Source: Patescibacteria group bacterium (GTDB taxonomy: Bacteria > Patescibacteriota > Kazan-3B-28). From it: a stretch of DNA of 64,000 nt. The translations under genes and the position numbers were made by a program. Below, piece by piece: positions 45,394 to 63,773 of this stretch; positions within the stretch are counted from its first letter, which is position 1, and the number at the start of each line of letters is the position of its first letter. Below the pieces are notes generated by a model, which worked only from the letters and a program-made list of their open reading frames with translations, searched no databases and was not told the origin of the DNA. Location of the stretch: contig JBAZNQ010000002.1 of NCBI GenBank assembly GCA_041649135.1, forward strand, positions 41,238 to 105,237. Direction: 5' to 3'.

Positions 45394-45467
45394 GCGGGTA
45401 TAGTTTAATGGTAGAATATCTCTTTTCCAAAGAGAATATACGGGTTCGATTCCCGTTACCCGCTCCA
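45394..45467 (+). tRNA. tRNA-Gly (anticodon UCC), CCA encoded
   Basis: Manual fold: acceptor GCGGGTA/TACCCGC, D-loop AATGGTAG, anticodon stem TCTCT/AGAGA with loop TTTCCAA (U33, anticodon TCC, A37), T-arm ACGGG-TTCGATT-CCCGT, discriminator T, then CCA. Confidence 0.85.
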
Positions 45468-46967
45468 GTCTGAACACAAGGCGCGCTCCGCGAGGAGCGC
45501 GTAAGGCGGAATCCAGTCCCAGAGCACTTTCCGAGAATTCAGAATCAGGTTCGAGCCAACCTCCGCGACAAAGTCGCGTAGTTCCAAGAGATCACCACCC
45601 GCAGCCGGGAGATTGCTCTCCCTGACTGCGTTAATCAGCTCCCGAAGAGGTTCGAGCCAGTACATCACCCCCTGACGGGCGATCTTGCCGAATTGGGTCT
45701 CAAGAGCTATCTTCGCATTCACCAACTTTCGCTTGCGGGCGGCATACTCCGCCCGATCAATTTCTCCATCTACATGCAAGTCATTCAATCTGCGCAGCTT
45801 CGCTGCGATCCCGGCAATTTCAATTTCAAGCTTGAGCGCTGGCGCATTCTCATTGGTTACGGCTTCAGCTTCCCAGTCGTCTAGCTGGCGGAGCATCGGG
45901 AAAACCCACTCCTCCGATTCTGGTAAGGCGATAGTCTTAAGCCGTTCCCACATCCTTGCTAATAAATCCTCTTCGCGCATAAACGGCTGGGAACATTTTA
46001 AAGTCCCGCCTTTTTTGGTGCAGCGATAGTAGCGCCAGACATGGTGGTTGCCGTTCTGCTGCGTCCTGACGTGTGTCTCGGCGGTAATCGAAGCTCCGCA
46101 TTCCCCACAGCGTATCAGCCCTAAGAATGGAAACTCTCTCTTGTAATGCGCTTGGGCTCTTCCTCGCTGAGCAAATACACGTTGCACCTTGTCCCAAAGT
46201 GCTTTGCTTACAACCGGTTCATGGCAACCCCTGTAAAGCTCGCCTTTCCACAAAATCGCCCCGTAGTAGAACGGATCAACCAGTATGCCCGACATGCTGG
46301 CTTTAGGGATCAAGGTCTCGTAGTAGCCCTTAAGCCCGTGTCCGTACATTACTTTCGCTAAGGCAAGCATTGAGTACTGGCCGGTGGCGTACAGCTCAAA
46401 CATCCGCTTGATTAACGGAAATCTGACAGGATCAGGAATAATCTCATGTGTTTTAGGATGATTGAGGTAGCCTAGTTTCGCTTTGCCGGGGTAGATGCCC
46501 TTCGCTAACTTAGATGCTAGACCACGGTGGACTAGCTCGCTCAGGTTATCAGTGTAGCGCTTGCTTTCGGCGAAAAAGAACGCCAGCATGAACTTGTCAG
46601 TACTCGTATTTTTGAAGGTAGAAGTAGCAGTCACAATCTGGTGCAATTGACCGGAATCGAGAAGCTCAATGATCCGCGCTCCATCCATAGCATTGCGGGC
46701 GATTCGTGAAGCATCATAAGCTAGCAGCGCGTTGGCTTTGCCCTGGCTGATGGAAGCAAGAACAGCATCAAACTGTGGCCTTCCTGGTTTCCTCGCACTC
46801 ATCGATTCCTCATACTGCTCTTCAAGACGCATTTGAAGGCTGCTAGCAGCTTTCAAAGCCCATTCGCGCTGGTCCGGGATGCTTTGTACTTGTCGCTCGT
46901 CGCTTTCAGTAGATTTACGGTAGTAAGCGACATATCTCAATTTGGTGTGCTGTAGTTTATTGCTCAT
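45456..46967 (-). CDS. Large serine recombinase (integrase), C-terminus overlapping the tRNA-Gly 3' end
   Basis: Resolvase/invertase N-domain with the catalytic serine region YYRKSTESDERQVQSIPDQ, a recombinase domain and a zinc ribbon (CGECGASI...C..C). The stop codon lies inside the tRNA acceptor stem. Confidence 0.9.
   Translation of the reverse strand: MSNKLQHTKLRYVAYYRKSTESDERQVQSIPDQREWALKAASSLQMRLEEQYEESMSARKPGRPQFDAVLASISQGKANALLAYDASRIARNAMDGARIIELLDSGQLHQIVTATSTFKNTSTDKFMLAFFFAESKRYTDNLSELVHRGLASKLAKGIYPGKAKLGYLNHPKTHEIIPDPVRFPLIKRMFELYATGQYSMLALAKVMYGHGLKGYYETLIPKASMSGILVDPFYYGAILWKGELYRGCHEPVVSKALWDKVQRVFAQRGRAQAHYKREFPFLGLIRCGECGASITAETHVRTQQNGNHHVWRYYRCTKKGGTLKCSQPFMREEDLLARMWERLKTIALPESEEWVFPMLRQLDDWEAEAVTNENAPALKLEIEIAGIAAKLRRLNDLHVDGEIDRAEYAARKRKLVNAKIALETQFGKIARQGVMYWLEPLRELINAVRESNLPAAGGDLLELRDFVAEVGSNLILNSRKVLWDWIPPYALLAERALCSDWSG
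45461..45539. repeat. Left copy of a perfect 79-bp inverted repeat (pairs with 47884..47962)
   Basis: CGCTCCAGTCTGAACACAAGGCGCGCTCCGCGAGGAGCGCGTAAGGCGGAATCCAGTCCCAGAGCACTTTCCGAGAATT is the exact reverse complement of 47884..47962. Its first 7 nt are the tRNA-Gly 3' end. Confidence 0.85.
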
Positions 46968-46969
46968 GG

Positions 46970-47830
46970 TTAACTCGGATTACTTGATGTACGATTTGCT
47001 GACTGACCACTTCGCGAAGTGGACACTTCCCATTTACCACCTTGAGCAACCACGCGGATACGACCGTCTCCACGGGTGGTAAGTACTCTACGGAATGTTC
47101 CGTCTTCGAGCTTTACACCGCGAGCGTGATCGCGGTACGGCGCGCGCTTGGTGAGTTGCCGTCCTTTGGCTTGCTCCTTGTCCGAGATCACGATGAGCTT
47201 AGGCGATAAGTACTGGAACGCTTCTTCGAGATAGCCGGTCGGCCTGCCGTGGTGTGAAGCTACCAGTAGGTTGGTCTCACGCAGCCAGTACTGGAACGCC
47301 TTGTTCTGTATGTGCAATCGCCAGCCACGAGCATTCAGGTCGCCAGGCAGACAGACGGTGAAGCCGTCCTCAGTGATAAACGAAACGAGCGACAGGTCGT
47401 TCACATCGCGAACACTGCCAAGCGGGAGATAGAACTGGTGTAACTCCATCGTCCTGAATTGGCGCGATGCTTCCATCGGCTGAAGCTCGGCGATGGTCTT
47501 GCTCTGCGACAAGTACGCTTTCTGCGCCTTGCTTAGCGTGTCCTTCAACTCGGACAATGTCTTCATAAACAACTGCGGGTGCTGCCAGACATGAACCGGC
47601 TGAAGCTTTTCAAGCACATTCGGCAAGTCAGCCAAGTGGTCTTGGTCTGGGTGGGTTAGTATCAGGTGGTGAAGTCTCCGGCGAGAACCGAAGCCCTGCT
47701 TAGCCAGCCCATCCGACGGCCGCCAGCCGGTCGTTGTGTTGTATCCGCAGTCTACTAGAACGGCTTCATTCTGCGCACTCAAGATGAGGACGCAGTCGCC
47801 ATGCTCAACATCGTAAATGCGGATTTCCAT
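46970..47830 (-). CDS. MBL-fold metallo-hydrolase
   Basis: HxHxDH motif (LTHPDQDHLADL) with additional His/Asp ligands; co-directional and tightly linked with the serine recombinase. Confidence 0.7.
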   Translation of the reverse strand: MEIRIYDVEHGDCVLILSAQNEAVLVDCGYNTTTGWRPSDGLAKQGFGSRRRLHHLILTHPDQDHLADLPNVLEKLQPVHVWQHPQLFMKTLSELKDTLSKAQKAYLSQSKTIAELQPMEASRQFRTMELHQFYLPLGSVRDVNDLSLVSFITEDGFTVCLPGDLNARGWRLHIQNKAFQYWLRETNLLVASHHGRPTGYLEEAFQYLSPKLIVISDKEQAKGRQLTKRAPYRDHARGVKLEDGTFRRVLTTRGDGRIRVVAQGGKWEVSTSRSGQSANRTSSNPS

Positions 47831-47883
47831 AACTCACACATTATCCGCCGGACACAAGGGCGGCGCAATCATTCCCTTCGCTC

Positions 47884-47962
47884 AATTCTCGGAAAGTGCT
47901 CTGGGACTGGATTCCGCCTTACGCGCTCCTCGCGGAGCGCGCCTTGTGTTCAGACTGGAGCG
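47884..47962. repeat. Right copy of the perfect 79-bp inverted repeat
   Basis: Exact reverse complement of 45461..45539 (checked base by base). Confidence 0.85.
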
Positions 47963-48254
47963 ATCTGCTCTCCAGGCTCCGAACTTACTTCGAGCATAAC
48001 ACATCGGAGAGGTAGGGATTCGAACTACCCCTATTTAAGCCCCTATGTACCGGTAAAAAGGGGTAACTCATAACGTCAACCCGCTTCCAGTCTAGGTTTC
48101 TCCTACATCGGAGATGTAGCTCTTGTAGCTGACACCGCCCCTGCCGCCGCTCGGAGAGCTGCGGGCGGGTCGGCGCATTCATATTCGACTGTGCGCGGGA
48201 ATTCAACATACTCAATAACAGGAACCAAAACACCTTCATCCGCATGATGAAAAC

Positions 48255-48290
48255 GGGCCGGAGAAGCGCGCTCCTCCGGCCGATGACGAT
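48255..48290 (-). terminator. Putative terminator of the minus-strand ZnR-membrane/GNAT/small-peptide operon
   Basis: Near-palindrome CCGGAGAAGCGCGCTCCTCCGG, followed on the minus strand by CCCGTTTTCAT. Confidence 0.4.
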
Positions 48291-48309
48291 GAGACACAAT
48301 CGCACTGCG

Positions 48310-48498: not shown

Positions 48499-48504
48499 TC
48501 GCTT

Positions 48505-49116
48505 TCACCTCCCTTCCCGCAGATTGCTGTGAATGCTCGCTGCCGCCAGCTCGGGCCGGGCAGTGGTGTCGAGTGACCGTTGCGTTTCGTCGAACTGCTC
48601 CCGGCTGACGGCATAGAGCAGCAGGTCGTGGTAGCCGCCCCGCCAGTACAGGTGCTCGCGCAGCACCGCTTCCGGACGGATACCCGCCGCCTGCAAGGTG
48701 GCGTTGGATTCTTGGTTGAAGCCATATACCTCGGCATATAGCTTGCGCAGGGGGTAGTTATCGAAAAGCCAAGCCGCGAAGCTCCGGGCGGCCCAGCTGC
48801 CCAGGCCACGCCGGCGGTTGGCCGCTTCGATGAACACCGCCAGGTACGCCCAGCCATGCAGTGAGTTGTAGTTGTAGGAGTAGACCGTGCCCACGGCTTT
48901 GCCTTCCGCACGCACCATGAAGCGGACGTGAGTGGACGCCTCGGTTTCCTGGAACTCCCGTGCGAACTGCTCGGGATTGCGCGGCGCGCGACGGGGGTAC
49001 CAAAGCGATAACGTTGCCAGATCGTTGCGCCAAGCATGCAGCACTGGCCGGTCGGCTTCACACATCGGACACAGCTCCGCTGGCGTGGGGCTGTTAGGTT
49101 GGGGGCTGCTACTCAT
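48505..49116 (-). CDS. GNAT-family N-acetyltransferase (RimJ/RimL-like)
   Basis: Acetyl-CoA-binding motif RRRGLGSWAARSF within a GNAT fold of ~200 aa. Confidence 0.85.
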   Translation of the reverse strand: MSSSPQPNSPTPAELCPMCEADRPVLHAWRNDLATLSLWYPRRAPRNPEQFAREFQETEASTHVRFMVRAEGKAVGTVYSYNYNSLHGWAYLAVFIEAANRRRGLGSWAARSFAAWLFDNYPLRKLYAEVYGFNQESNATLQAAGIRPEAVLREHLYWRGGYHDLLLYAVSREQFDETQRSLDTTARPELAAASIHSNLREGR

Positions 49117-49623
49117 TTAGTTCAGCTCCCGCAGACGCTTGATGTCCATGATGATGTTGATGGGCAGGATGATGAACGCGAACGGCGCGACGAGTACTAT
49201 GCCGCAGATGAAGATGATGATCCAGTTGTTGACTGTGGTGAAGTACATCAGGCCGGTGATATCCGACAGCTTGTCCATCAGCTTGCGGAAGTTGACGAAT
49301 GACCAGATGATGGTTGGAATGACCAGCAGGCTGATGAAGGCCGCTCCGTGCGGCGGCTCTCCGGTGCTGGCACTGGCGACGGCCACTAGGGCGATGATGC
49401 CGATGAGTAACGTCCCCAGCACGCTGCCACTAATGACCAGCTGGCGGATGATCGCCCCGCGCTCCGTCGCCAGCGCGTCCTGGTATTCACCGGCCATGGT
49501 GGTATAGCAGTGTTCGCAGATCGGCTGGCCGAAACGCTCGCTGCACTCGCGGCATAGCCCGCGTCCGCAGCCTTGGCTGCACATACCAACAGCCCGCTCC
49601 AGCGAATGCTTGTAGCAGTTCAT
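49117..49623 (-). CDS. Zinc-ribbon membrane protein (hypothetical)
   Basis: N-terminal Cys cluster (CSQGCGRGLCRECSERFGQPICEHC) followed by 3-4 TM helices. First gene of a three-gene minus-strand operon. Confidence 0.5.
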   Translation of the reverse strand: MNCYKHSLERAVGMCSQGCGRGLCRECSERFGQPICEHCYTTMAGEYQDALATERGAIIRQLVISGSVLGTLLIGIIALVAVASASTGEPPHGAAFISLLVIPTIIWSFVNFRKLMDKLSDITGLMYFTTVNNWIIIFICGIVLVAPFAFIILPINIIMDIKRLRELN

Positions 49624-49985: not shown

Positions 49986-51653
49986 GTGGGGGATCTTGTG
50001 TTTGAGCATTCACCTTCTGTGTGGGATGTAGTAAGTGCTATCGCCAGCAGCCTGATGCTGTGGGCTTTGGTGATTCTGCTGCTGCTGGCCGTGCGCCTTT
50101 GGTTGACCAAGTTCATCTACTACATGCAGGACTACACCACCGGCTTTCTCAAAGTACGTGGCTTGGTAGCTGCCGCACAGCGTGAAGACGCATGGAAACT
50201 CAGCGAGCATCGTCCCGTTGGCAAGTATGCCGACTGCTCACTGACGCTCGGACTAACAGAGAGCAGCGGCTACTCACAGCCATTTGTGGTTCCCGGCGAT
50301 TACCGCACTACTCATATGTATGTGGTGGGCGCTTCCGGCTCCGGCAAGTCGTCGTTGCTGAAGAACCTGATCCATCAGGACATCCGCAGCGGGATGGGAC
50401 TGTGTGTGATCGACCCGCACGGCGATCTGATCTATGACACGGTGGCGCAGCTGGGCAAGCGAGCGGAGCAAACCGTGATGCTGGACTTGGCGGATACGGA
50501 ACACATGCTCGCGTACAATCCGCTTGAGCGCAGGCAAGGTGTGCTGGTTGCCGAGCAGGTGGCGAAGCTGATACTGGCGTTTCAGCGGATTTGGTCTGAC
50601 AGCTGGGGGTCTAGGATGGAAGACATCCTGCGCCATACGCTGACGCTGCTTGTCGAGCAGGGATACACGCTGGCGGAGTTCGAGCGCGTGCTGACCGACG
50701 CGGACTTCCGCGAGATGTTGGTTGAAGCATCGATGATTGACCAAACGCGCGAGTACTTCCTTGGACGCTACAACACATGGAACAGCAAGGAACGCCAGCT
50801 CTTCAGCGAGTCCTCTCTTAACAAGGTCTCGGCGTTCATGGCCGATCCTCGCATTGGCGTGAGACTCGGCCAGACTAAGTCCGGCTTCAACCTAAAGGAC
50901 ATCATGGACACCGGTGGGATACTGCTGGCGAATCTCGCGAAAGGCAAGCTGGCGGGTAACGCAGACCTATTCGGCGCGCTGCTGATGGCTGACATTGAAA
51001 TGAGCTTCCTTTCCCGCCCGCCAAACCAGCGCAGTCCGTTCGCGCTGTATGTCGATGAGTTTCAGAACATCGCAACGGAGAGTTTCGAGACGGTGCTGGC
51101 GGAAGCGCGCAAGTTTGGCCTGTGCTTAACGATGGCGCACCAATCCCTGAAGCAGGTTGATGACACGCTGGCTTCGCTCATCCTCGGCAACGCGCAGACG
51201 CAGGTGTACTTCCGTGTTGGCAGGCAAGATGCGGAGCGGTTGGCGAAAGAGTCTGCCAACATTATCGCGCAGCTGATCGAGCAAGAGGAAGAGCCGCAAT
51301 TGATGCAGGAACGGGAGCGGAAGTTCTCCATGTCCGAGTTATGGGAAGCGGCTTTTCACCAGCTTGTCCGGCTTGAGCCGCGCCGGGCTTATGTGATGGT
51401 CAAGGGCGCGATGGAGCATCCGGAGCTGGTTCGCACGATAGATAATCCTGTGGTCAAGAGCGTGAAGTTCCCTTACAGCGCAGCCTACGCCAAGCTGGAA
51501 GTGTTTGAGGCGGCGCTGAAACAGCGGGCGAAAGACATCATGCATGCAGTGGATGAGTACGTGAAGCAGAGGCAAGCGAAACAAGGCAAGCCAATTGAAG
51601 CCAGTCCTGGCGCGGATGAGGAAGTACCGGCAGCATTGGACTTCTTGAAGTAG
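49986..51653 (+). CDS. Type IV coupling-protein-like ATPase (TraD/TraG/VirD4 family; TraM-recognition/DUF87-like)
   Basis: N-terminal TM helix, Walker A VVGASGSGKSSLL, Walker B ALYVDEFQNI and a C-terminal TraD/TraG-like region (KFGLCLTMAHQSLKQV). Confidence 0.7.
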   Translation: MGDLVFEHSPSVWDVVSAIASSLMLWALVILLLLAVRLWLTKFIYYMQDYTTGFLKVRGLVAAAQREDAWKLSEHRPVGKYADCSLTLGLTESSGYSQPFVVPGDYRTTHMYVVGASGSGKSSLLKNLIHQDIRSGMGLCVIDPHGDLIYDTVAQLGKRAEQTVMLDLADTEHMLAYNPLERRQGVLVAEQVAKLILAFQRIWSDSWGSRMEDILRHTLTLLVEQGYTLAEFERVLTDADFREMLVEASMIDQTREYFLGRYNTWNSKERQLFSESSLNKVSAFMADPRIGVRLGQTKSGFNLKDIMDTGGILLANLAKGKLAGNADLFGALLMADIEMSFLSRPPNQRSPFALYVDEFQNIATESFETVLAEARKFGLCLTMAHQSLKQVDDTLASLILGNAQTQVYFRVGRQDAERLAKESANIIAQLIEQEEEPQLMQERERKFSMSELWEAAFHQLVRLEPRRAYVMVKGAMEHPELVRTIDNPVVKSVKFPYSAAYAKLEVFEAALKQRAKDIMHAVDEYVKQRQAKQGKPIEASPGADEEVPAALDFLK

Positions 51654-52004: not shown

Positions 52005-52320
52005 ATGAGTTCGCGCTCTGCCAGAACTCAACCTAATTCACCGTGAAAGGCGAAAGGTGCAAGAGCGCCCAAAGACGAGTCCTACTAGCGTAAGTAGGAC
52101 AGGGTTTGAACATGACGCCCCCACGTCCATCTTGTGTTTCGGCCGCTAGACCACCTGAGACGGCTACACGCGGTAGCTTCTAGACGGGTGGGCATATTCC
52201 CTTGCTCCCCGCGCCCGGCAGAGCGTAGCTCAAGCATACGCTCTGTTGACAGTTTCGCGAAAACGCTAGATCCAAAACAGACGGCTTAAGTTTCTATCCA
52301 CATGATAGACTAGCAGCGCT

Positions 52321-53247
52321 GTGAATGTATACAAAGCAAAGGCTGGGCGCTTCCTGTTGTATCTCGATATTCTAGGGTTCAAGCAACTAATCCGGCACCG
52401 CAGCCCTGAAGAGGTCTACGCCACAGTAGATCAGATGTTGAGAGAGACCGCTGAGCGAGAACGCGGTATACCGGATTTCACAACGTTATATTTCTCAGAC
52501 ACGATTGTCTTTTTTCAAAAGTCGGTCGGATACGGATCTTGGGCCTTTGGAGACATTTATTCATTAACTGCAATGATCTGGTCAGCACTGGCAGCCAGAA
52601 AAATACCGACTCGCGGAGCAATCGCCTTTGGAGACTTCCATGCCGAGCCAGATTCCCGTGGGCAGCACACGGTATTCTTCGGTGAGGCGTTGATAGAAGC
52701 TTACGAAACTGAAAAACTGGAAAACTGGATCGGAGTAACTCTATGTCCAAGCGCTGTGGAAATCGTTAATTACGTAGAGCCTAATCGACTTACGCAAATG
52801 CTAAATGAGCCAGGCGCTTTCGATTACGTGGATCAGATTGAGAAAGAGCACGCAGCCTATACTCCGGCTGTCTTTGTCGAGTATTTTAAGAAGGCACAGC
52901 CAACAGTACTGCATAGAACTGCTTGCCGTCGAGTGCTCCTCAATCCACTGTACTTTCTGCATCAAACTTGGTTCGCAGATGTCTACGATGAGGGAGTAGT
53001 GAGTTACCCCCTTCATCATGATAGTGTGCATTTCGCTCATGATATTCTCTCCCTGAAGTTCATCCTACAAACCGCAGAGGAACCAGATGGAGCTGATCCA
53101 GAGCGGAACAAAGTCCTCGCCAAGTATAGAAATACAGCAGCGCTCCTCCGCCAGATGTTTCCGTCAGAGTGTATCGAGTGGGCCTTGAAGCTCTATGAAA
53201 CTTTCCCGGACCAGGCAGACGAAGGGTGGGGCGACTGGAAGAAATGA
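52321..53247 (+). CDS. Class III nucleotidyl cyclase-like (AC/GC/GGDEF palm) domain protein with unknown C-terminal domain
   Basis: LYLDILGF matches the FADIVGFT metal-binding motif; FSDTIVFF lies 43 residues later, matching the second metal Asp (GDxxxxF); RGAIAFGDF matches the RIGIHxG arginine. GTG start. The assignment rests on motifs only. Confidence 0.45.
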   Translation: MNVYKAKAGRFLLYLDILGFKQLIRHRSPEEVYATVDQMLRETAERERGIPDFTTLYFSDTIVFFQKSVGYGSWAFGDIYSLTAMIWSALAARKIPTRGAIAFGDFHAEPDSRGQHTVFFGEALIEAYETEKLENWIGVTLCPSAVEIVNYVEPNRLTQMLNEPGAFDYVDQIEKEHAAYTPAVFVEYFKKAQPTVLHRTACRRVLLNPLYFLHQTWFADVYDEGVVSYPLHHDSVHFAHDILSLKFILQTAEEPDGADPERNKVLAKYRNTAALLRQMFPSECIEWALKLYETFPDQADEGWGDWKK

Positions 53248-53416
53248 TTAGCCTACTAATGACTGTGGACAATTTCACGGAAACGGTAGAACTACAATAG
53301 AAAGCACCGGTTTCTATCCACAACGAGCATACTAGGTAGGCAGAATCCTCTTCGCTCATTAACAACGTTAACTTCAACTCCCCGATGCGCGCAATACCGC
53401 CGGAGGCGGCACTGCG

Positions 53417-56377: not shown

Positions 56378-56395
56378 CGCAACGCGGGAGGCAGT

Positions 56396-56737: not shown

Positions 56738-56744
56738 ATTTGTA

Positions 56745-59015
56745 ATGATTACTCAGATATCCATAAGCAAGACGGCCATTTATGGCGATACGCCAGTTGT
56801 GTTAGACGAATTGCTTCAATTCAACTATGTTTTCGGTGCTAATGGTTCAGGCAAAACGACAGTAAGTCGTTTTCTCAATGACACTTTAAATCCAGAGTAT
56901 TCAAATTGCTCAGTTACGTATCAAGGAATTTCTCGACCTAATATTCTCGTCTACAACAAGGATTTTGTTGACGACAAGCTAAATGTATCAACAGCGATAC
57001 CAGGCATTTTTACTTTCGCTGATGAAAATGAACCAGCAAGGGCGAAAATCAAAGAACTAGCTGATACTTGCGCTGGCTATACTAAGACCCTTGAAGGACT
57101 CAACATCACCTTGAATGGAGGAGATGGCAAACCGGGTGAATTAGGCAAATTGCAAGTACTAGACGCTGACTTTCGCGGAAGATGTTGGCGACAAAAGCTC
57201 AAATACGACGCTGACTTCAAGAGCGCCTTCTCCGGATTTCGCCGGAACTCTGCCGATTTTATGAAGAAGGTTCTCCTTGAATACGCTGAGAATAAAGCCA
57301 CATTACTAAACATAGATACTCTGAAGAGCAAAGCAGGCTCCATCTTCACCGATACCCAGACAAGTGAGCCATCTTTTGAAATTATCGACTTCAGCAGAAT
57401 CCTCACCTATGAATCGAGCCTCCTGTTAAAGAAAGTGGTGGTTGGCAAACAGGATGTTGATATCGCCAGCATGATTAAGAAGTTGGGAAACAGCGATTGG
57501 GTGAAGACAGGGCGCCCATACTACGACATCAACGACATGTACTGTCCATTCTGTCAGCAACTTACTACAGAGCAGTTCGCCAAGGAACTGAATGAGTATT
57601 TCGATTTATCATTTGAATCTGATATGAAAGATTTACAGCAACTATACCAAGACTATGATGCTGAATCACAAGCAATCGAAGACAAGCTTAACACTATAGC
57701 AAGCCGTTCCTCGGTTTTCGTTGATATGAATCAACTAATAGCCGAAAGAGACACTCTCTTCGCTTTACTAAAAGCGAATACAGCCATTATCGAACAGAAA
57801 GTGAAAGAGCCAAGTCGGATATTTAGTCTTCAACCGCTAAATGAAGTAGTTAGTAGAATTAGCAATTTGTTGAATACAGCCAATGACAAGATTGACGAAC
57901 ACAACAAGCTAGTAGCGAACATTGCCGCTGAGCGTAAACTATTAACTGCCCAAGTATGGAGATTCATTATTGATTCAGAGTTGAAGGACGAGATTGAGAA
58001 GTACTTAGATGAGAAGAACAAAATTGAGAAAGCAATAACCGGCATCAACGCTAGAATTACCAAAACAAGTACGGAGCTGGAGAATGCCCAGAATGAAAGC
58101 AGTGCGCTTAGTAGGCAGATGACTAGCATTGAACCTACGGTACGACGCATTAATGATATTCTGCGTTCGTTCGGTTTCCTGAGTTTTCACTTAAAGGTTG
58201 CCGAAGATAGAACTTCTTACAAGATTGTACGCAGCAACGGAAGTGATGCTCGGCAGACCCTGAGCGAGGGTGAGCGCGCTTTTATTTCATTTCTCTATTT
58301 TTTCAGTATGATTTCCGGAAGCGTAGATGCGGACGGTTTAGCCGGAGACAGAATTGTCGTTTTTGATGATCCAGTATCTAGTTTAGATAGCGACGTTTTG
58401 TTTATTGTTAGCTCACTCATCAAGCAGACTATTAAACACTCGCGCGAGAAGATTAGCAGAGTCAGACAGATTTTCGTTTTTACACATAATGTATTTTTCC
58501 ATCGTGAGGTTACATTTGATATTAATAGAAGAGGACCAAAAAGGAATGATGAAACATTCTGGGTATTGCGGAAGATTAATAATAGGCCTCTTGCTAAATC
58601 GCATGAGGAGAATCCTATCACTACTTCCTATGAGCTGCTTTGGAGTCAGTTAAGAGACGATATGTCTAGCTCCTCAACGTTAGCAAATGTAATGCGACGG
58701 ATTCTGGAGCATTACTTCAAACTGCTTGGAGGAATGAAAGACGAGGACATATTTCAAAGGTTTGAAGGTGACGAGCAGCTAATATGCCGTTCGTTATTTT
58801 CATGGATGAACTATGGCTCGCATTGCTCGGATGACGATCTATATGTTGCAGTGGACGAGTCTATGGTGGAGAAGTACAAATCAGTATTCAAGAAGATATT
58901 CGTTGACACTGGACATGAGAAACATTTCGAGATGATGATGAAGGGGTTTGAATTTCCCGAAAAGGAAGCGCCATTAGAAGCTCCAGAGCCAGTCGAGGAA
59001 GCTGTTGTGGGTTAG
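56745..59015 (+). CDS. RloC-like AAA_13 ATPase (restriction-linked; putative wobble-nucleotide-excising anticodon nuclease)
   Basis: N-terminal Walker A FGANGSGKTT, long coiled coil containing a CxxC zinc-hook-like motif (YCPFCQQ), Walker B/D-loop VVFDDPVSSLDSD and a ~200-aa C-terminal domain. Located directly upstream of a Type III R-M pair. Confidence 0.6.
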   Translation: MITQISISKTAIYGDTPVVLDELLQFNYVFGANGSGKTTVSRFLNDTLNPEYSNCSVTYQGISRPNILVYNKDFVDDKLNVSTAIPGIFTFADENEPARAKIKELADTCAGYTKTLEGLNITLNGGDGKPGELGKLQVLDADFRGRCWRQKLKYDADFKSAFSGFRRNSADFMKKVLLEYAENKATLLNIDTLKSKAGSIFTDTQTSEPSFEIIDFSRILTYESSLLLKKVVVGKQDVDIASMIKKLGNSDWVKTGRPYYDINDMYCPFCQQLTTEQFAKELNEYFDLSFESDMKDLQQLYQDYDAESQAIEDKLNTIASRSSVFVDMNQLIAERDTLFALLKANTAIIEQKVKEPSRIFSLQPLNEVVSRISNLLNTANDKIDEHNKLVANIAAERKLLTAQVWRFIIDSELKDEIEKYLDEKNKIEKAITGINARITKTSTELENAQNESSALSRQMTSIEPTVRRINDILRSFGFLSFHLKVAEDRTSYKIVRSNGSDARQTLSEGERAFISFLYFFSMISGSVDADGLAGDRIVVFDDPVSSLDSDVLFIVSSLIKQTIKHSREKISRVRQIFVFTHNVFFHREVTFDINRRGPKRNDETFWVLRKINNRPLAKSHEENPITTSYELLWSQLRDDMSSSSTLANVMRRILEHYFKLLGGMKDEDIFQRFEGDEQLICRSLFSWMNYGSHCSDDDLYVAVDESMVEKYKSVFKKIFVDTGHEKHFEMMMKGFEFPEKEAPLEAPEPVEEAVVG

Positions 59016-59083: not shown

Positions 59084-60958
59084 ATGAAAGAGCCAGACAA
59101 GAAGCATGGAGTCGAACACGTCACGCGGGAAGCAGGGCTGGACATGAATGAGCGCGTGGAGTTTCTGCGCGAGCTGTTCCCGGAAGCCGTTGCTGAGGGC
59201 AGGGTGGACTGGGACAAGCTGCGTGCGGCGCTGGGCGAAGCGGTGGAAGGGAGCGCGGAGCGGTACAGTTTCTCATGGGCTGGCAAGCGCGACGCGATAA
59301 GGTTGGTACAGATGCCGAGCCGCGCAACGTTGAACCCCGCGCAGGATGAGTCCGTGGATTGGGACACGACCAGGAACGCCTTCATCGAGGGCGACAACCT
59401 TGAGGTGCTGAAGCTTCTGCTAAAGGCGTACTACGGGCGAGTGAAGATGATCTACATCGACCCGCCTTATAACACCGGCAATGACTTCGTTTATCCTGAC
59501 AATTACGCCGATCCGCTAGACACCTACCTCAAGCTGTCTGGTCAGAAAGACGCGGATGGCAACTTGCTGACTACTAACGCCAACACAAGCGGGCGCTATC
59601 ACTCGGTTTGGCTGTCAATGATGTACCCGCGCCTCTTCCTCGCCAAGCAAATGCTTCGAGAGGACGGAGTGATATTCGTAAGCATTGATGATAACGAAGT
59701 TCATAATTTGCGTCTGATAATGAACGAGATATTTGGCGAGGAAAACTTTATTGCACAATTCGTTTGGGAGAAGATGTATACAACCAAGAATGATGCTGCG
59801 CAGGTGTCCATATGTCACGAGTACGTTATTTGCTACGCGCACAATAGCAATGAATCGATGATTCAGTTACTCCCACGAACTGACGAAATGGATGCTAGAT
59901 ACACTAATCCGGACAATGATCCTCGCGGACAGTGGAAAGCGATTCCCTTGTACGCTGACGGAGAAAGGAAGAATGGCAGATTTCCAATAGCAAGTTCCAC
60001 AGGTAAAGTGACTGAGTTGGGGCCAAACAAGCATTGGCGATACCGATCTGAGGATGTTCAAGCACTTATTGCAGATAGCCGTATCTACTTCGGCAAAGAT
60101 GGGAATGGACAGCCTGTCTTGAAACGTTTCTTATCGGAAGTTCAGAGCGGGTTAAAAACAAAGACCTTATGGTCACACTCTGAGGTTGGGAGCAACGATT
60201 CAGCTAAACGGCAGCTCAGGCAGCTTTTTCCTGAGGCTACTGACGCTTTCAGTTTTCCTAAGCCCAGCACGCTAGTACAACACATGCTACGGCTTATCAC
60301 TACTCAAGCAGAAGAACTTGTGATGGATTTTTTTGCGGGAACCTGCACCACGGCTGAAGCCGTGCTTGAACTCAACCACACTGACTCGGGTAAACGAAGA
60401 TTCATTATGGTCCAGCTTCCCGAACTGACGGGACTCGCGAAGTGGGCAACTATCGCTGAGATCGGGAAGGAGCGTATCCGTCGCGTTATCGAAAAACTTA
60501 AAGCAGACCAGCAAGACAAGTTGAAGCTGGCAGAGCGCAACGAACCTGAAGACCTGGGCTTCCGCGTGTACAAGCTGGCAGAATCCAATTATAAGCTGTG
60601 GACAGGCGTCGCGGACAATGACCCCGACAAGTACGCGGCAGAACTGGAGCTGTTCGCCGATCCGCTATACGATGGCTGGCTACCTGAAAGCGTGATATAC
60701 GAAGTCGCAGTGAAAGAGGGCTACGGGCTGGGCTTGAGCATCGCAAAGGTAGACGGCGTCAAGAAGAACGAGGTTTACCGTGTGAGCGATGCGGGCAAGG
60801 GGCAGAGCTTCATCATCTGCCTGGACAGCAAACTCGACCCGCAAACGCCGCGCGAGCTGGAACTAAAGAAAGATGATCTATTTGTTTGCCGCGACATCGC
60901 GCTGACGGATGAACTGGCGGCTAACCTTGCTCTGCAATGCAGGCTGAAGACGGTGTAG
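59084..60958 (+). CDS. mod: Type III restriction-modification system methyltransferase (Mod), N6-adenine
   Basis: KMIYIDPPYNTGNDFVYPDNY (DPPY motif IV) and an SAM-binding FxGxG region; size and order match Type III Mod. Confidence 0.85.
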   Translation: MKEPDKKHGVEHVTREAGLDMNERVEFLRELFPEAVAEGRVDWDKLRAALGEAVEGSAERYSFSWAGKRDAIRLVQMPSRATLNPAQDESVDWDTTRNAFIEGDNLEVLKLLLKAYYGRVKMIYIDPPYNTGNDFVYPDNYADPLDTYLKLSGQKDADGNLLTTNANTSGRYHSVWLSMMYPRLFLAKQMLREDGVIFVSIDDNEVHNLRLIMNEIFGEENFIAQFVWEKMYTTKNDAAQVSICHEYVICYAHNSNESMIQLLPRTDEMDARYTNPDNDPRGQWKAIPLYADGERKNGRFPIASSTGKVTELGPNKHWRYRSEDVQALIADSRIYFGKDGNGQPVLKRFLSEVQSGLKTKTLWSHSEVGSNDSAKRQLRQLFPEATDAFSFPKPSTLVQHMLRLITTQAEELVMDFFAGTCTTAEAVLELNHTDSGKRRFIMVQLPELTGLAKWATIAEIGKERIRRVIEKLKADQQDKLKLAERNEPEDLGFRVYKLAESNYKLWTGVADNDPDKYAAELELFADPLYDGWLPESVIYEVAVKEGYGLGLSIAKVDGVKKNEVYRVSDAGKGQSFIICLDSKLDPQTPRELELKKDDLFVCRDIALTDELAANLALQCRLKTV

Positions 60959-60968
60959 GGCTAGCGCT

Positions 60969-63725
60969 ATGGAATTTAAGTTTGACGCTAATCAGGAGTA
61001 CCAGCTTACGGCGATAGATGCCGTGGTCAGCCTGTTCAACGGCCAGCCGCATATGGAAGCCGTGATCACGTTTGGCACTGAGGTGATACTCCCAGAGCAC
61101 GCATATCAGACCGATCTGCCGCTGCCGGCTGACAGACCTAAGCAGATGGCTTTGTCAGCGGGACTTGCCGCAGTGCCGAACCAGATTGAGCTAACACCAG
61201 AGGAAATCCTGCGCAACCTGCGCGATTTGCAAGAAGCGAATGGCATAGAACCGGACGCGGAGCTGAAGTACATCGCGGGCGAAATCGAGACGGCTGAAGG
61301 CAAGGCGGAAGCGCGCTTCCCCAATTTCTCCGTGGAGATGGAGACCGGCACGGGCAAGACCTACGTGTACATTCGCACCGTGCTTGAGCTGTACCAGCGT
61401 TATGGGATGCGTAAGTTTATCGTGGTCGTGCCGTCTATCGCTGTACGTGAGGGCGTGCTGAAGTCGCTGAAGGTCACGTCGCGGCACTTGAAAGAGCTGT
61501 ATAGCAATCCGACCTATCGCTTCTATGTCTACGACTCAGCCAGCCTGAGCCAGGTCCGTGGTTTCGCCACTTCGAGCGGCGTCGAGATCATGGTGATGAC
61601 GCTGGACTCGTTTAACAAGGCGGTAAAAGAAGACGGCGCAGGTGGCAACGTGATTTTCAAGAGCACGGACAAGCTGTCCGGCGAAAAGCCGATCCACCTG
61701 ATTCAGAACACGCGCCCGATTCTCATTCTCGATGAACCGCAGAACATGGAGAGCGAGAAAAGCGTGGAAGCGCTCAAGGTGCTGAACCCGCTATGCGCCT
61801 TGCGCTACAGCGCGACGCACCGCAATCCGTACAATGTCGTCTACCGGCTGTCGCCGTTCGATGCCTACCGGCAGAACATCGTGAAGCGAATCGAAGTGGC
61901 GTCGGTCGTTAAAACCGATGACGCCAACCAAGCGTTCATGCGGCTGGAAAGCGTGAAGACGCTGAAGAACACCATCACGGCAAAGCTGACGGCGCACAAG
62001 CTGATGAAAGACGGCACTGTCAAGGAAACGAGCTTCACGCTGAAACCTGATAGCGACCTGGCTGAACTAACGAACTTGCCGCAGTATGCTGGCTTGACGG
62101 TTGAAGAGATTGACGTGGTGGGGCAACGTGTCCTATTCACCAATGGCGTCGAATTAACTGCTGGCGAAGCACAGGGCGCGGACAAGGACGCAATCTTCGA
62201 GGCGCAGATTCGCTACACCGTGGAAGAGCATATGCGTAAGGCGAAGCGCTTCCGCGATGCGGGAATCAAGGTGCTGTCGCTCTTCTTCATTGACCATGTC
62301 GATAACTATGTGCTTGAAGACGGGCTTATCAAGAAGCTTTTCGATAAGGCGTACTTAGCGCTTCGCGATAAGCATCCTGAATGGAAGCAGTGGGAGCCAG
62401 ATGAAGTGCGCGCTGCGTACTTTGCCCAGCGCAAGGTGAAGGGCACAACGGAAGCCGTGGACACCACGGGCAAGAGCGCGGCGGACGCCTACGCTTACGA
62501 CCTGATTATGAAAGACAAGGAACGCCTGCTGTCGTTCGAGTCGCCGGTGGCGTTCATCTTCTCTCACTCGGCGCTACGTGAAGGTTGGGACAATCCGAAC
62601 GTATTTCAGATTTGCACGCTGAACCAGACGGCATCGGAAATCAAGAAGCGCCAAGAAGTCGGGCGCGGTATCCGGCTGGCGGTGAACCAGACCGGCGAAC
62701 GTGTCCACGAGGAAGCGGTGAACGTGCTGACCGTCGTGGCGAATGAGAGCTATGAGCAATATGTCGCTTCACTACAAAGCGAGATTGAAGCGGAGTACGG
62801 AGCTTCCGGCGTGCCGCCTAAGCCGCCGCGCGCCGAACGTGTAACCGTCCGGCTGAACAAGAAGTACCTGCTCAGCGATGACTTCAAGAACCTTTGGGAG
62901 AAGATTAAGCACAAGACTCGTTACTCGGTGAAGATTGATACGGACAAGCTGGTCGGTGATGTGCTGGCGGAGTTGGACAAAGCGGTAATCAGCAAGCCAC
63001 GCGTGGAAATTCGCAAGGCAGATGTAACCGTAGACAAAGAGGAAGCGTTCAAGGCACTGCTAAAGACCGGCGCAAAGACGCTGATTGACCTGTCCGGCAA
63101 GTACCCCTTGCCTAACCTAGTCGAACTGCTGCTGCACCAGCTTGAGCACACCAGCCCGCCGGTGCGACTGACGCGGGCAACGCTGGCGCGGATCGTGCGC
63201 GAGACCAAGCGCAAAGCTGACGCGGCGCTGAATCCGCAAGAGTTCGTGCGGGTCGCGACCGACATCCTCAAAGACAAACTGGCTGAAAGCCTGATTGACG
63301 GGATTGAGTACGAGAAGATGAATGCTTGGTACGAGATGAGCCAGTTCGAAGATTTCGAAAGCTGGCGAGAACACCTTGTACCGGCGAAACACTCGGTCTA
63401 TGACGCGACGCCATTCGACTCCGAGATTGAGCAGAAATTCGCTGAAGGGCTGGAAGCGCGCGAAGATGTGCGCCTATACGTCAAACTGCCAAGCTGGTTC
63501 ACCGTGCCAACGCCTGTGGGAGAGTATAATCCTGATTGGGCCATTGTGATGAACAGCGAAGACGAGGGCAAGCCGGTGTTGTATTTGGTGCGGGAAACCA
63601 AAGGAACCACCAATCCGTGCGACCTGCGCCCCGACGAGAAGCGTAAAATCATCTGTGGTAAAAAGCATTTCAAGGATGCTCTAGCTATCGATTACAAGGT
63701 TGTTGCGAAAGCATCCGAGGTTTAG
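60969..63725 (+). CDS. res: Type III restriction enzyme Res subunit (SF2 helicase + endonuclease)
   Basis: N-terminus MEFKFDANQEYQLTAIDAVVSLFNGQ is typical of Res. Walker A METGTGKTYV, DEPQN box and a C-terminal PD-(D/E)xK-like region. Confidence 0.9.
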   Translation: MEFKFDANQEYQLTAIDAVVSLFNGQPHMEAVITFGTEVILPEHAYQTDLPLPADRPKQMALSAGLAAVPNQIELTPEEILRNLRDLQEANGIEPDAELKYIAGEIETAEGKAEARFPNFSVEMETGTGKTYVYIRTVLELYQRYGMRKFIVVVPSIAVREGVLKSLKVTSRHLKELYSNPTYRFYVYDSASLSQVRGFATSSGVEIMVMTLDSFNKAVKEDGAGGNVIFKSTDKLSGEKPIHLIQNTRPILILDEPQNMESEKSVEALKVLNPLCALRYSATHRNPYNVVYRLSPFDAYRQNIVKRIEVASVVKTDDANQAFMRLESVKTLKNTITAKLTAHKLMKDGTVKETSFTLKPDSDLAELTNLPQYAGLTVEEIDVVGQRVLFTNGVELTAGEAQGADKDAIFEAQIRYTVEEHMRKAKRFRDAGIKVLSLFFIDHVDNYVLEDGLIKKLFDKAYLALRDKHPEWKQWEPDEVRAAYFAQRKVKGTTEAVDTTGKSAADAYAYDLIMKDKERLLSFESPVAFIFSHSALREGWDNPNVFQICTLNQTASEIKKRQEVGRGIRLAVNQTGERVHEEAVNVLTVVANESYEQYVASLQSEIEAEYGASGVPPKPPRAERVTVRLNKKYLLSDDFKNLWEKIKHKTRYSVKIDTDKLVGDVLAELDKAVISKPRVEIRKADVTVDKEEAFKALLKTGAKTLIDLSGKYPLPNLVELLLHQLEHTSPPVRLTRATLARIVRETKRKADAALNPQEFVRVATDILKDKLAESLIDGIEYEKMNAWYEMSQFEDFESWREHLVPAKHSVYDATPFDSEIEQKFAEGLEAREDVRLYVKLPSWFTVPTPVGEYNPDWAIVMNSEDEGKPVLYLVRETKGTTNPCDLRPDEKRKIICGKKHFKDALAIDYKVVAKASEV

Positions 63726-63773
63726 CGTCTCTAGCCACAAGTATGTAAGAAGGAGGGCTTACTTACAATAGAA

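What the first reader, a model, noticed from the sequence alone, without database searches (positions are those of the whole stretch)
45461..63730. GC-rich ~18-kb island inserted at the 3' end of tRNA-Gly, with conjugation-type genes and stacked defence cargo
The G+C and codon style change abruptly exactly at the tRNA-Gly 3' end (45461) and drop back near 63.73 kb, where an AT-rich NUDIX gene starts. The island carries a large serine recombinase, a TraD/VirD4-like coupling ATPase, a replication-relaxation protein and DUF2958, which are hallmarks of actinomycete-type integrative conjugative/mobilisable elements. It also carries an RloC-like ATPase, a Type III R-M pair, a cyclase-like gene and a GNAT operon. 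The compositional contrast suggests acquisition from a high-GC donor. If this is an episymbiotic CPR/Saccharibacteria-like organism, the host actinobacterium is an obvious candidate donor, but that is speculative.
Basis: partly seen in the sequence, partly recalled or inferred. Interest (0 to 1): 0.75.

Follow-up and report, generated by a model that had tools for sequence, protein, structure and literature searches.

The report
Mobile defence island at tRNA-Gly
A mobile DNA island carrying transfer and anti-phage genes sits at the end of a tRNA-Gly gene in a Patescibacteria genome, and it belongs to a large family that always keeps a spare, flipped copy of its own docking site next to the integrase gene, a layout I could not find described.

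Summary
There is a real insertion. The left edge is exact: homology to related genomes that lack the island stops at 45461-45471, the 3' end of tRNA-Gly(TCC). The right edge at 63.73 kb is wrong. That point is only a compositional change inside the element. GC-rich DNA resumes about 2.9 kb past the window end, and overlapping metagenome contigs place an attR-type repeat at about 67,982-68,177. The element is therefore about 22.7 kb.

It is an integrative mobilizable element (IME), not a conjugative or actinomycete-type one. It carries a large serine recombinase (LSR), an MBL-fold protein, a coupling ATPase, DUF2958 and a Replic_Relax nicking-type protein, but no mating-pore genes. Its cargo is an AAA_13/PrrC-like ATPase, a Type III R-M pair, a NUDIX-GSCFA-MurA-like block and a ThsB-like TIR gene.

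The same backbone (77-92% amino-acid identity, about 55% GC) occurs in hosts of 66-68% GC. The element has its own composition and does not look like a recent copy of a high-GC donor.

The unexpected result concerns the att sites. LSR+MBL is flanked by an 82-nt, 99% identical inverted repeat. One arm is attL. The other is a complete, inverted attP-type site whose outer arm recurs at the far end. All but one of the 72 family loci with enough flanking sequence share this layout, always in the same orientation. None of 39 outgroup LSR loci does.

The parts
45394..45467 (+). tRNA-Gly(TCC), the integration target. Its T-loop and acceptor 3' strand form the attB-type left half-site (t).
   Evidence: ARAGORN and Rfam, 72 bits. 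Relatives carry the same tRNA with nothing inserted.
45461..45542 (.). Site A, an attL-type junction. Core O is CGCTCCAG at 45461-45468 (last 7 nt of the tRNA plus G). Arm p follows at 45469-45542 and also encodes the last 27 codons of the LSR.
   Evidence: Left arm of the 82-nt, 99% inverted repeat. Homology to empty sites ends at 45471.
45456..46967 (-). Large serine recombinase, 503 aa. Its stop codon lies inside the tRNA 3' end.
   Evidence: Pfam Resolvase + Recombinase + Zn_ribbon_recom. Distant match to the A118 and SPbeta integrases in PDB. R17 and S19 are invariant in alignment A2.
46970..47830 (-). MBL-fold metallo-hydrolase co-oriented with the LSR inside the inverted repeat. Possible recombination or DNA-processing accessory protein; function not shown.
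   Evidence: Pfam Lactamase_B. PADLOC PDC-M48B 2e-43. Partial match to the ComEC MBL domain. 84-92% identical in L009 and L010.
47881..48150 (.). Site B, a complete attP-type site in inverted orientation. It consists of p' 47881-47954, O' 47955-47962 and z' 47963-48150. It lies just upstream of the MBL-LSR operon.
   Evidence: p'+O' form the right arm of the inverted repeat. O'+z' recur, inverted, about 20 kb downstream. z carries a T-loop-like GTTCGG motif 5 nt further from O than the real T-loop.
48505..49623 (-). GNAT acetyltransferase (48505-49116) and a 168-aa zinc-ribbon membrane protein (49117-49623). This is the most GC-rich cargo.
   Evidence: Pfam Acetyltransf_3. GC3 0.77-0.83. Absent from relative L009.
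49986..51653 (+). Type IV coupling protein (TraD/VirD4-like ATPase).
   Evidence: Pfam TrwB_AAD_bind, TraG-D_C, T4SS-DNA_transf. NCBIfam VirD4-like/TraD, below cut-offs. 76-82% identical in L009-L011.
52243..53322 (+). Inserted cassette: a 308-aa gene of unknown function (52321-53247) between two 60-nt copies, 75% alike, of a conserved palindromic intergenic element.
   Evidence: Direct repeat D1. The cassette is missing from variant L005. The element is single-copy in L005 and L009. No family assignment.
53417..54588 (+). Conserved backbone genes: a 114-aa protein, DUF2958 and a 169-aa protein.
   Evidence: Pfam DUF2958 1e-13. 77-83% identical, in the same order, in L009.
55376..56377 (+). 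Replic_Relax protein, the putative nicking enzyme (relaxase or replication initiator).
   Evidence: Pfam PF13814 8e-17. PHROG 'replication initiation by nicking' 4e-11. 77% identical in L009.
56396..59015 (+). Defence cargo 1: a 113-aa zinc-ribbon protein and an AAA_13 ATPase (RloC/PrrC-like). This is a low-GC block.
   Evidence: Pfam AAA_13 1e-166. PADLOC PDC-S06 2e-259 and PrrC 4e-14 over the C-terminal part. GC 0.42.
59084..63725 (+). Defence cargo 2: a Type III restriction-modification pair, Mod (59084-60958) and Res (60969-63725).
   Evidence: PADLOC MTase_III 3e-188 and REase_III 2e-252. Pfam N6_N4_Mtase, ResIII and RE_endonuc.
63775..64000 (+). 5' part of a NUDIX gene, the first gene of a low-GC NUDIX-GSCFA-MurA-like block. 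The block continues past the window. It is followed by a GC-rich ThsB-like TIR gene and by site C (z-O) at about 67,982-68,177.
   Evidence: Contigs L004, L005 and L006 extend the window at 99-100% identity. Composition. MurA-like: best other hit 41%. TIR: PADLOC ThsB 1e-73.

Best explanation
The region is the first 18.5 kb of an integrative mobilizable element (IME) of about 22.7 kb. It is inserted at the 3' end of tRNA-Gly(TCC) in a Patescibacteria chromosome.

Integration (inferred). A large serine recombinase joined an element attP (arms z and p around the core CGCTCCAG) to the tRNA gene. The tRNA's T-loop serves as the distal recognition motif of the attB left half-site. The element's z arm carries a T-loop mimic 5 bp further out, as expected for an attP half-site. 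This left attL at 45461 (tRNA-core-p, regenerating the tRNA end). It left attR (z-core-host) at about 68.18 kb, outside the window.

Transfer (inferred). The backbone is MBL protein, coupling ATPase, DUF2958 and a Replic_Relax nicking protein. It has no mating-pore genes, so the element would have to use another element's conjugation apparatus.

Cargo. The cargo is a mosaic of anti-phage genes from several compositional sources.

The third site (shown). The integrated element also keeps a complete, inverted attP-type site (B, 47881-48150) directly upstream of the MBL-LSR operon. Its arms stay nearly identical to those of attL and attR. This is a constant feature of the whole LSR family, always in the same orientation.

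What B does (my leading guess, about 40%, not shown). It acts as a self-updating operator through which the recombinase controls its own operon, and DNA-level gene conversion keeps it matched to the active sites.
For: Insertion and left end. Relatives (RuvX 59-67% identical) keep the order L25-AlaRS-FtsA-53x aa-RuvX-HU-tRNA-Gly. After the tRNA they carry a tRNA cluster and trxB, with no LSR and no island. Homology stops at 45471. An independent 89-kb MEGAHIT contig links host DNA, A, LSR, MBL and B.

Right end. ENA contig k141_2812476 starts at window 48010 and ends with the reverse complement of 48010-48150. The other ENA contig ends at 48095. With k=141 this defines a 196-nt repeat, 47955-48150, that diverges from B exactly at the core/p boundary. 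The JGI contig also ends inside the inverted copy.

GC and tetranucleotide usage show backbone-like DNA right up to that copy.

attP/attB logic. In 35 of 39 loci the z arm has a GTTC motif exactly 5 nt further from the core than the tRNA T-loop. This matches the ZD-motif shift described for serine integrases (PMC3783163).

Family layout. 72 of 83 loci have the inverted repeat, and only one locus with adequate flanks lacks it. Clean A/B/C trios occur in at least 14 loci. The target 3' end overlaps the arm at the LSR 3' end in 37 loci and the upstream arm in none. None of 39 outgroup LSR loci has the repeat.

Backbone. MBL, T4CP, DUF2958 and Replic_Relax are 76-92% identical in L009-L011. L009 keeps all of them in the same order.

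Element GC is about 0.55 in hosts of 0.47, 0.66 and 0.68.

Other family members also carry defence cargo.

Homogenisation. Arm mismatches show no G:T bias (37 against 40 A:C).
Against: The host side of site C was never seen, because the source contig beyond 64 kb is not readable here. attR is therefore inferred from contig ends and from family analogy.

The join of the 20-kb cargo segment to the host contig passes through a 196-nt repeat. Its orientation cannot be checked from short-read contigs.

The NUDIX-GSCFA-MurA-like block has low GC, and MurA is normally a housekeeping gene. A captured or rearranged piece of host-lineage DNA is not excluded.

No excised form (attB or a circular junction) was detected. 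No oriT was identified. Replic_Relax is not an established relaxase family.

No sigma-70-like promoter was found in or near B, and nothing here tests binding or repression. The proposed role of B is a guess.
Confidence: 0.75

Rival explanations
1. One reading: the island is 18 kb and ends at 63.73 kb. NUDIX, GSCFA and MurA are host genes, and the GC-rich TIR block with the z copy beyond them is a separate remnant.
For: GC falls to 0.40-0.45 exactly after the Res stop codon. MurA is usually an essential chromosomal gene.
Against: Relatives with perfectly conserved upstream synteny have a tRNA cluster and trxB after tRNA-Gly, not NUDIX-MurA. The block's tetranucleotide usage is unlike host DNA (r=0.19 against 0.83-0.88) and its GC3 lies 3.2-3.5 sd below host. 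The MurA-like protein has no homologue above 41% although RuvX relatives at 59-67% are in the same database. There is no core or z sequence at 63.7 kb. In the family, attR is always the z-core copy.
Confidence: 0.12
2. Assembly or binning artefact. The GC-rich 48.1-68 kb segment belongs to another organism's copy of a related element and was joined to the Patescibacteria contig through the shared 196-nt repeat.
For: Two short-read assemblies break exactly at this repeat. Close backbone relatives live in hosts of 66-68% GC.
Against: The LSR-MBL module is unambiguously inside the host contig, and it has the same composition as the segment (r=0.80). In L009 the same MBL gene lies next to the same T4CP gene across the same kind of site. 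Three samples give the same segment at 99-100% identity. The layout matches at least 14 other loci assembled without a break.
Confidence: 0.06
3. The 2.5-kb LSR-MBL unit with its 82-nt terminal inverted repeats is an invertible switch or an IS-like element of its own, unrelated to the cargo segment.
For: A recombinase gene enclosed by perfect inverted repeats is the classic layout of Hin/Gin-type invertible segments. LSR identity to relatives (44-51%) is far lower than backbone identity (76-92%), which suggests module exchange.
Against: Orientation is fixed: 37 loci have the target 3' end at the LSR 3' end and none shows the flipped state. The outer flank of the second arm is always the element-specific z arm with attP-type spacing, not host DNA. 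z recurs at the far end of the cargo.
Confidence: 0.08
4. Site B is needed for recombination itself and is not a regulatory site. One version: it acts as an accessory site that bridges attL and attR and replaces a directionality factor. Another version: the two inverted attP copies pair in a single-stranded transfer form.
For: Most family members carry no conserved candidate directionality factor; between the repeat arms there is only the LSR, and the cargo varies. Multi-site synapses are normal for serine resolvases (established knowledge of Tn3/gamma-delta res). B is a complete attP by spacing rules.
Against: Canonical LSRs do not pair attP with attL or attR (PMC3783163). Arm mismatches show no wobble bias, so there is no sign of selection on a folded single strand. 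A double-stranded circle with two equal attPs should integrate in both orientations, which is not seen.
Confidence: 0.25

Closest known systems
Integrative and mobilizable elements (IMEs) with serine integrases, as reviewed for streptococci and others (PMC5704250)
   Same: Site-specific integration. Carries its own coupling protein and a putative nicking protein but no mating pore. Modular cargo.
   Different: The integrase targets a tRNA 3' end. The nicking protein is of the Replic_Relax type, not a classified MOB relaxase. The host is a Patescibacteria MAG. The integrated element contains an extra inverted attP.
Phage-type large serine integrases (A118/LI, Bxb1, phiC31, SPbeta)
   Same: Resolvase, recombinase and zinc-ribbon domain order. 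A short shared core. The distal motif lies 5 bp further out in attP than in attB.
   Different: Only remote sequence similarity (PDB E about 1e-7). The targets are tRNA and tmRNA genes, read through the T-loop. The P' arm lies inside the integrase's own coding end. A second attP copy is kept upstream of the gene.
tRNA/tmRNA-integrating genomic islands of the Islander type (tyrosine integrases, PMC4383910)
   Same: The same target class and the same 3'-end sublocation. The element restores the tRNA end.
   Different: A serine integrase, not a tyrosine integrase. Only 3-11 nt are shared, with no long displaced tRNA fragment, so repeat-based island finders would miss the far end.
Integrase autoregulation at an att site (KplE1 intS, PMC2951348) and resolvase repression at res
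   Same: A recombinase binding site overlaps or precedes the recombinase gene's control region. This is the model for my leading guess about site B.
   Different: In those systems the operator is the working att or res site itself. Here it is an additional, inverted, full copy. Regulation is untested.
Invertible segments (Hin/Gin) and the yeast 2-micron plasmid
   Same: The recombinase gene lies between inverted repeats that contain its sites.
   Different: No orientation polymorphism was found (0 of 37). The repeats are att-type hybrids sharing arms with the element ends.

Membership tests
Large serine recombinase (serine integrase) | N-terminal resolvase catalytic domain with the catalytic serine, then a recombinase domain and a zinc-ribbon domain | tested here: met
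   Pfam PF00239, PF07508 and PF13408 in order. R17 and S19 are invariant in 22 homologues. RD/ZD region matches the A118 integrase.
Large serine recombinase (serine integrase) | attP and attB share only a short core, and the distal (ZD) motif lies 5 bp closer to the centre in attB | tested here: met
   Core of 3-11 nt in the trios. A +5 nt offset in 35 of 39 loci, including the window. The rule comes from PMC3783163.
Large serine recombinase (serine integrase) | Catalyses attP x attB integration; excision needs a directionality factor | not testable with these tools
   No activity data. No excised junction was recovered.
Integrative mobilizable element (IME) | Integrase plus its own relaxase and/or coupling protein, without a type IV secretion pore | tested here: met
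   LSR, T4CP and Replic_Relax are present. Every ORF of 100 aa or more in 45.4-64 kb and every called gene to 68 kb was scanned. None is VirB4-, VirB6- or TraB-like.
Integrative mobilizable element (IME) | A functional relaxase and oriT | tested here: inconclusive
   Replic_Relax (PF13814) and the PHROG 'replication initiation by nicking' match suggest nicking, but this is not a classified MOB family. A conserved palindromic intergenic element is only a candidate oriT.
Integrative conjugative element (ICE) | Self-encoded mating-pair formation system (VirB4-type ATPase and others) | tested here: not met
   No such gene in the element. The only hit, to the CD1110 VirB4-like family, is 1e-4 within the T4CP itself.
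Actinomycete ICE (AICE) | FtsK-like TraB translocase, a Rep protein and usually a tyrosine integrase; actinobacterial affinity | tested here: not met
   The FtsK_SpoIIIE hit is marginal (0.003) inside a TrwB/TraD-type protein. The integrase is a serine recombinase. Plasmid hits are about 30% identical and taxonomically mixed.
Type III restriction-modification | Adjacent Mod methyltransferase and Res helicase-nuclease genes | tested here: met
   PADLOC MTase_III 3e-188 and REase_III 2e-252. The genes are 10 nt apart.
RloC/PrrC anticodon nucleases | ABC/AAA_13-type ATPase fused to a C-terminal anticodon-nuclease domain | tested here: inconclusive
   AAA_13 matches over its full length (1e-166). 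PrrC matches only at 4e-14 over residues 466-731. The best family is the uncharacterised PDC-S06.
Thoeris | ThsB TIR protein together with a ThsA effector | tested here: not met
   A ThsB-like TIR gene (1e-73) lies just beyond the window. No ThsA-like gene is called within the element.
Invertible DNA switch | Both orientations of the segment occur | tested here: not met
   37 loci in one orientation and 0 in the other. The ENA contig passes both arms without branching at them.

The most novel reading that the evidence does not exclude
A large, previously unrecognised family of serine integrases targets tRNA and tmRNA 3' ends by reading the T-loop, which makes them easy to retarget to any tRNA. 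Their elements, mostly small defence islets, obligatorily keep a third, inverted, intact attP next to the integrase gene. That site would be a cis-acting control element, either a self-updating operator or a built-in substitute for a directionality factor. If so, it is a new principle for how serine integrases are regulated.
Probability: 0.35. Interest if true: 0.85.

Novelty: new variant of a known kind. Interest (0 to 1): 0.7.

Why it matters
For this genome, the result shows that a Patescibacteria cell carries a mobilizable element. Its backbone is 76-92% identical at protein level to copies in unrelated hosts of 66-68% GC. That is direct evidence of recent gene flow across very distant lineages into a group thought to have few mobile elements.

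More generally, the integrase family has three notable properties:
- It uses at least 13 different tRNA species plus tmRNA as targets.
- It recognises them through the universal T-loop, with the textbook 5-bp attP/attB offset.
- It mostly carries anti-phage cargo.

Repeat-based island finders would miss these elements, because only 3-11 nt are shared at the ends.

The constant inverted attP copy is not predicted by the current model of serine-integrase directionality. It is cheap to test. If it controls expression or excision, it would matter for using these enzymes as genome-engineering tools.

Tried and rejected
Searches that found nothing:
- An exact search of GTDB genomes for the z-core junction found nothing.
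- A RuvX-based scan of GTDB confirmed no relatives. No organism names for relatives were obtained this way.
- A degenerate 49-nt pattern matching both tRNA-core and z-core found nothing in JGI metagenomes. Neither the host side of attR nor an excised junction was recovered.
- The source contig itself is never returned by the contig look-ups, so the sequence beyond 64 kb comes only from overlapping contigs.
- A direct repeat of the tRNA 3' end is absent from the window.

Ideas tested and dropped:
- A tRNA- or tmRNA-like gene in 47.96-48.15 kb: ARAGORN and Rfam found nothing, although a T-arm-like stretch is there.
- A small ORF re-using the LSR tail across site B: no credible start codon.
- A promoter in z: the consensus scan found none. 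The TTGAAA-N17-TAAAAT-like pattern in AT-rich members is only a lead.
- Selection for RNA or single-stranded DNA pairing of the arms: there is no G:T excess.
- A double-stranded circle with two equivalent attPs integrating through either one: this is contradicted by the 37:0 orientation bias.
- Phage origin: IMG/VR holds only distant LSRs, with no repeat and no tRNA adjacency.
- Actinobacterial origin: not supported by the plasmid hits.
- The 'cyclase-like' label for the 308-aa gene: no support in Pfam, NCBIfam, PHROGs or PDB.
- Cluster names for the LSR homologues gave no organism names.
Full report
**1. What is at the coordinates**

ARAGORN and Rfam place one tRNA, Gly(TCC), at 45394-45467. 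A 503-aa ORF on the minus strand (45456-46967) has the domain order of a large serine recombinase, or LSR: Resolvase, Recombinase, Zn_ribbon_recom. Its stop codon lies inside the tRNA's acceptor 3' strand.

The following genes come next:
- an MBL-fold protein
- a GNAT acetyltransferase and a zinc-ribbon membrane protein
- a TraD/VirD4-type coupling ATPase (T4CP)
- DUF2958
- a Replic_Relax protein
- an AAA_13 ATPase
- a Type III Mod/Res pair
- from 63775, a NUDIX gene cut by the window end

The gene inventory in the finding is therefore right, except for the 'cyclase-like' gene. That gene matches nothing informative.

**2. Composition**

Twenty-nine host genes have GC3 of 0.465 +/- 0.038. Most island genes lie 3-10 sd above this. 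The 308-aa gene and the AAA_13 gene do not.

Tetranucleotide usage separates three classes:
- Host DNA: control windows correlate with the rest of the host at r=0.83-0.88.
- Island backbone: the LSR-MBL module (r=0.80 to backbone) and the block beyond the window that carries a TIR gene (r=0.71).
- A low-GC class, the NUDIX-GSCFA-MurA-like block: r=0.19 to host and -0.15 to backbone.

So the drop at 63.73 kb is real, but it is not a return to host DNA.

**3. Empty sites in relatives fix the left end**

NCBI names the LSR's source a Patescibacteria-group MAG, on a contig of 218 kb. RuvX, 600 nt upstream of the tRNA, has homologues of 59-67% identity on long contigs.

Five such loci keep the order L25-aminotransferase-AlaRS-FtsA-like-53x aa-RuvX-HU-tRNA-Gly(TCC). 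They continue with tRNA-Arg/His/Arg/Lys/Glu and thioredoxin reductase. They have no recombinase and no island.

Aligned to the window, homology runs through the tRNA and stops after CGCTCCAGTCT, at 45471.

**4. The right end lies outside the window**

An 82-nt, 99% identical inverted repeat has arms at 45461-45542 and 47881-47962, enclosing LSR+MBL. The first arm begins with the last 7 nt of the tRNA.

Contigs from three other samples carry the island at 99-100% identity:
- One MEGAHIT k141 contig runs from host DNA through both arms and stops at 48095.
- A second starts at 48010 and runs through the whole island and 4 kb past the window. It ends with the reverse complement of 48010-48150.
- A JGI contig ends the same way.

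With k=141, these ends define a 196-nt repeat, 47955-48150. Its second copy is inverted and sits at about 67,982-68,177. It departs from the first copy exactly where the 82-nt repeat begins.

Three sites thus share the 8-nt core O (CGCTCCAG):
- A = tRNA-O-p
- B = z-O-p, inverted
- C = z-O-?

In integrase terms these are attL, an intact attP, and attR.

Between 64 and 68 kb lie GSCFA, a MurA-like gene (best other homologue 41%) and a ThsB-like TIR gene in 0.6-GC DNA. I could not read the host side of C.

**5. The same layout holds throughout the LSR family**

The closest LSR homologues on long contigs (44-56% identity) each show a repeat of about 80 nt around the LSR. One arm overlaps the 3' end of tRNA-Pro, tRNA-Met or tRNA-Ser.

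A profile search of JGI metagenomes returned 80 more loci, with LSR identity of 34-44%. The counts over all 83 loci are:
- 72 of the 83 loci have the repeat. Median arm length is 105 nt and median identity 98.8%. Only one locus with enough flanking sequence lacks it.
- The target is a tRNA of at least 13 species, or tmRNA. Its 3' end overlaps the arm at the LSR 3' end in 37 loci and never the upstream arm.
- In at least 16 loci, the sequence just outside the upstream arm recurs, inverted, 0.7-8 kb further on. In 7 more, the contig starts inside such a copy.
- At least 14 loci give clean A/B/C trios with cores of 3-8 nt, for example CGGAGCCA, CCGCCA, CGACCA and CACCAT.
- None of 39 more distant LSR loci from IMG/VR has a flanking repeat or an abutting tRNA.

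This is not an assembly artefact and not a general LSR property.

**6. Site B obeys serine-integrase site rules**

Serine integrases bind a distal motif that lies 5 bp closer to the crossover in attB than in attP (PMC3783163).

In 35 of 39 loci, including the window, the z arm carries a T-loop-like GTTC motif. It sits exactly 5 nt further from the core than the true T-loop in the tRNA arm; three more loci show +4. In the window, the motif GTTCGG starts 22 nt before O, while the tRNA's GTTCGA starts 17 nt before it.

So the tRNA supplies an attB-type half-site, z is an attP-type half-site that mimics it, and B is a complete attP. The p arm lies inside the conserved C-terminal coding sequence of the LSR (...KVLWDW..PYALLAER).

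**7. What kind of element it is**

No gene in the element resembles a mating-pore component. With an integrase, a coupling protein and a nicking-type protein (Replic_Relax, plus the PHROG 'replication initiation by nicking' match), it fits an integrative mobilizable element. It does not fit an ICE or an actinomycete AICE.

T4CP hits on plasmids are about 30% identical and come from mixed phyla. Replic_Relax hits one Herpetosiphon plasmid at 25%.

The backbone itself is shared closely with L009, L010 and L011, although their LSRs are only 44-51% identical and use other tRNAs:

| Protein | Identity to L009-L011 |
|---|---|
| MBL | 71-92% |
| T4CP | 76-82% |
| DUF2958 | 83% |
| 169-aa protein | 77% |
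| Replic_Relax | 77% |

Element GC is 0.55-0.57 in all of them, while the flanking hosts are 0.47, 0.66 and 0.68. The 'GC-rich' look is the element's own composition seen against a low-GC host.

In other family members, the segment between B and C carries Shedu, R-M systems, OLD-type and ABC ATPases, a deaminase or a helicase-nuclease. It often starts with a small XRE regulator next to B.

**8. What site B might do**

This step is inferred. The observations that bear on it are:
- B is universal in the family and complete.
- It is inverted relative to A and C.
- It sits 50-300 nt upstream of the LSR operon.
- Its arms are kept about 98% identical to the arms of A and C, far beyond the roughly 25 bp a half-site needs.
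- Orientation is fixed, which argues against a switch. It also argues against a free circle whose two attPs are used equally.
- Mismatches between the arms show no G:T excess (37 against 40 A:C), with many transversions and indels. This argues against selection on a folded RNA or single-stranded DNA, and for homogenisation at the DNA level.

I therefore favour, at about 40%, an operator through which the LSR limits its own expression. Gene conversion from the working sites would keep it matched when the element changes target. Known analogies are integrase repression at attL in KplE1 (PMC2951348) and resolvase repression at res.

An accessory role in excision gets about 25%. No promoter was detected by the consensus scan.

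I found no description of this layout in four literature searches. The library is incomplete, so I cannot claim it is undescribed.

**9. Verdict**

- The island is real and the left end is exact.
- The right end and the size are wrong.
- 'Conjugative/actinomycete-type' should read 'mobilizable, broad host range'.
- The most interesting feature, the three-site architecture of a T-loop-reading serine integrase family, was not in the original finding.

Noticed in passing
window 41672-44390: A block of about 2.7 kb lies between the 545-aa gene and RuvX: an IS1595-family DDE transposase (41917-42738), three small ORFs and an LPD3-domain protein (43880-44290, minus strand). In relatives these two genes are adjacent, so this is a second, separate insertion. 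Its GC is 0.40-0.45.
   Followed up: partly
window 52243-53322: The 308-aa gene of unknown function sits between two 60-nt copies (75% alike) of a palindromic element, CTGTGGACA...TATCCACA. That element is single-copy and conserved upstream of the DUF2958 operon in L005 and L009. This looks like a cassette insertion into a candidate oriT or regulatory site. The cassette is absent from the 98.9%-identical JGI variant L005.
   Followed up: partly
window 47963-48150 (minus strand): The z arm contains a T-arm-like stretch (GGGGTAGTTCGAATCCCTACC) in addition to the GTTCGG motif near the core. ARAGORN and Rfam call no tRNA or tmRNA there. It may be a relic of an earlier tRNA target.
   Followed up: partly
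window 56745-59015: The AAA_13/PDC-S06 gene has GC 0.42 inside a 0.55-GC element. Its tetranucleotide correlation with the host is r=0.48, higher than for any other island part. It may have been acquired separately, or have resided longer in low-GC genomes.
   Followed up: no
L004 12807-15527 (about 63.8-66.5 kb in window numbering): A NUDIX-GSCFA-MurA-like operon lies inside the element. The MurA-like protein has no homologue above 41% identity among 5.8 billion proteins. NUDIX proteins act as transfer-immunity factors (Pif) in actinomycete elements, from my own knowledge. The block's role here is unknown.
   Followed up: partly
L086 5890-6399: One family member is integrated into the 3' end of a tmRNA gene, not a tRNA, with core CCACCA.
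   Followed up: no
L072 1654-1850 and L042 1656-1880: In these two loci, the flank at the LSR 3' end is not a tRNA. It is a second, different z-type arm with attP-type spacing. These may be free or nested forms of the element. They do not fit the simple attL reading.
   Followed up: partly
L065 94-251 / 1723-1880: Here the upstream repeat arm includes about 30 nt of the tRNA's T-arm and acceptor strand at tRNA-type spacing. Site B looks like a copy of attL, not attP. This may be a gene-conversion tract that ran past the core.
   Followed up: no
L068 1508-3007 vs 10022-11520: Two LSR genes, 81% identical, lie in opposite orientation 7 kb apart on one contig. Two related elements appear to sit head to head.
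   Followed up: no
window 35204-35289: A short tandem duplication (about 37-nt period, 94% identity) showed up as self-hits when the ENA contig was aligned to the window.
   Followed up: no
window 45482-45501 and 47922-47941: Each repeat arm contains a GC-rich perfect hairpin, CGCGCTCC-TCGC-GGAGCGCG. It coincides with the conserved ALLAER motif at the LSR C-terminus. Comparable hairpins occur in the p arm of other family members, one followed by a T-run (L064).
   Followed up: no
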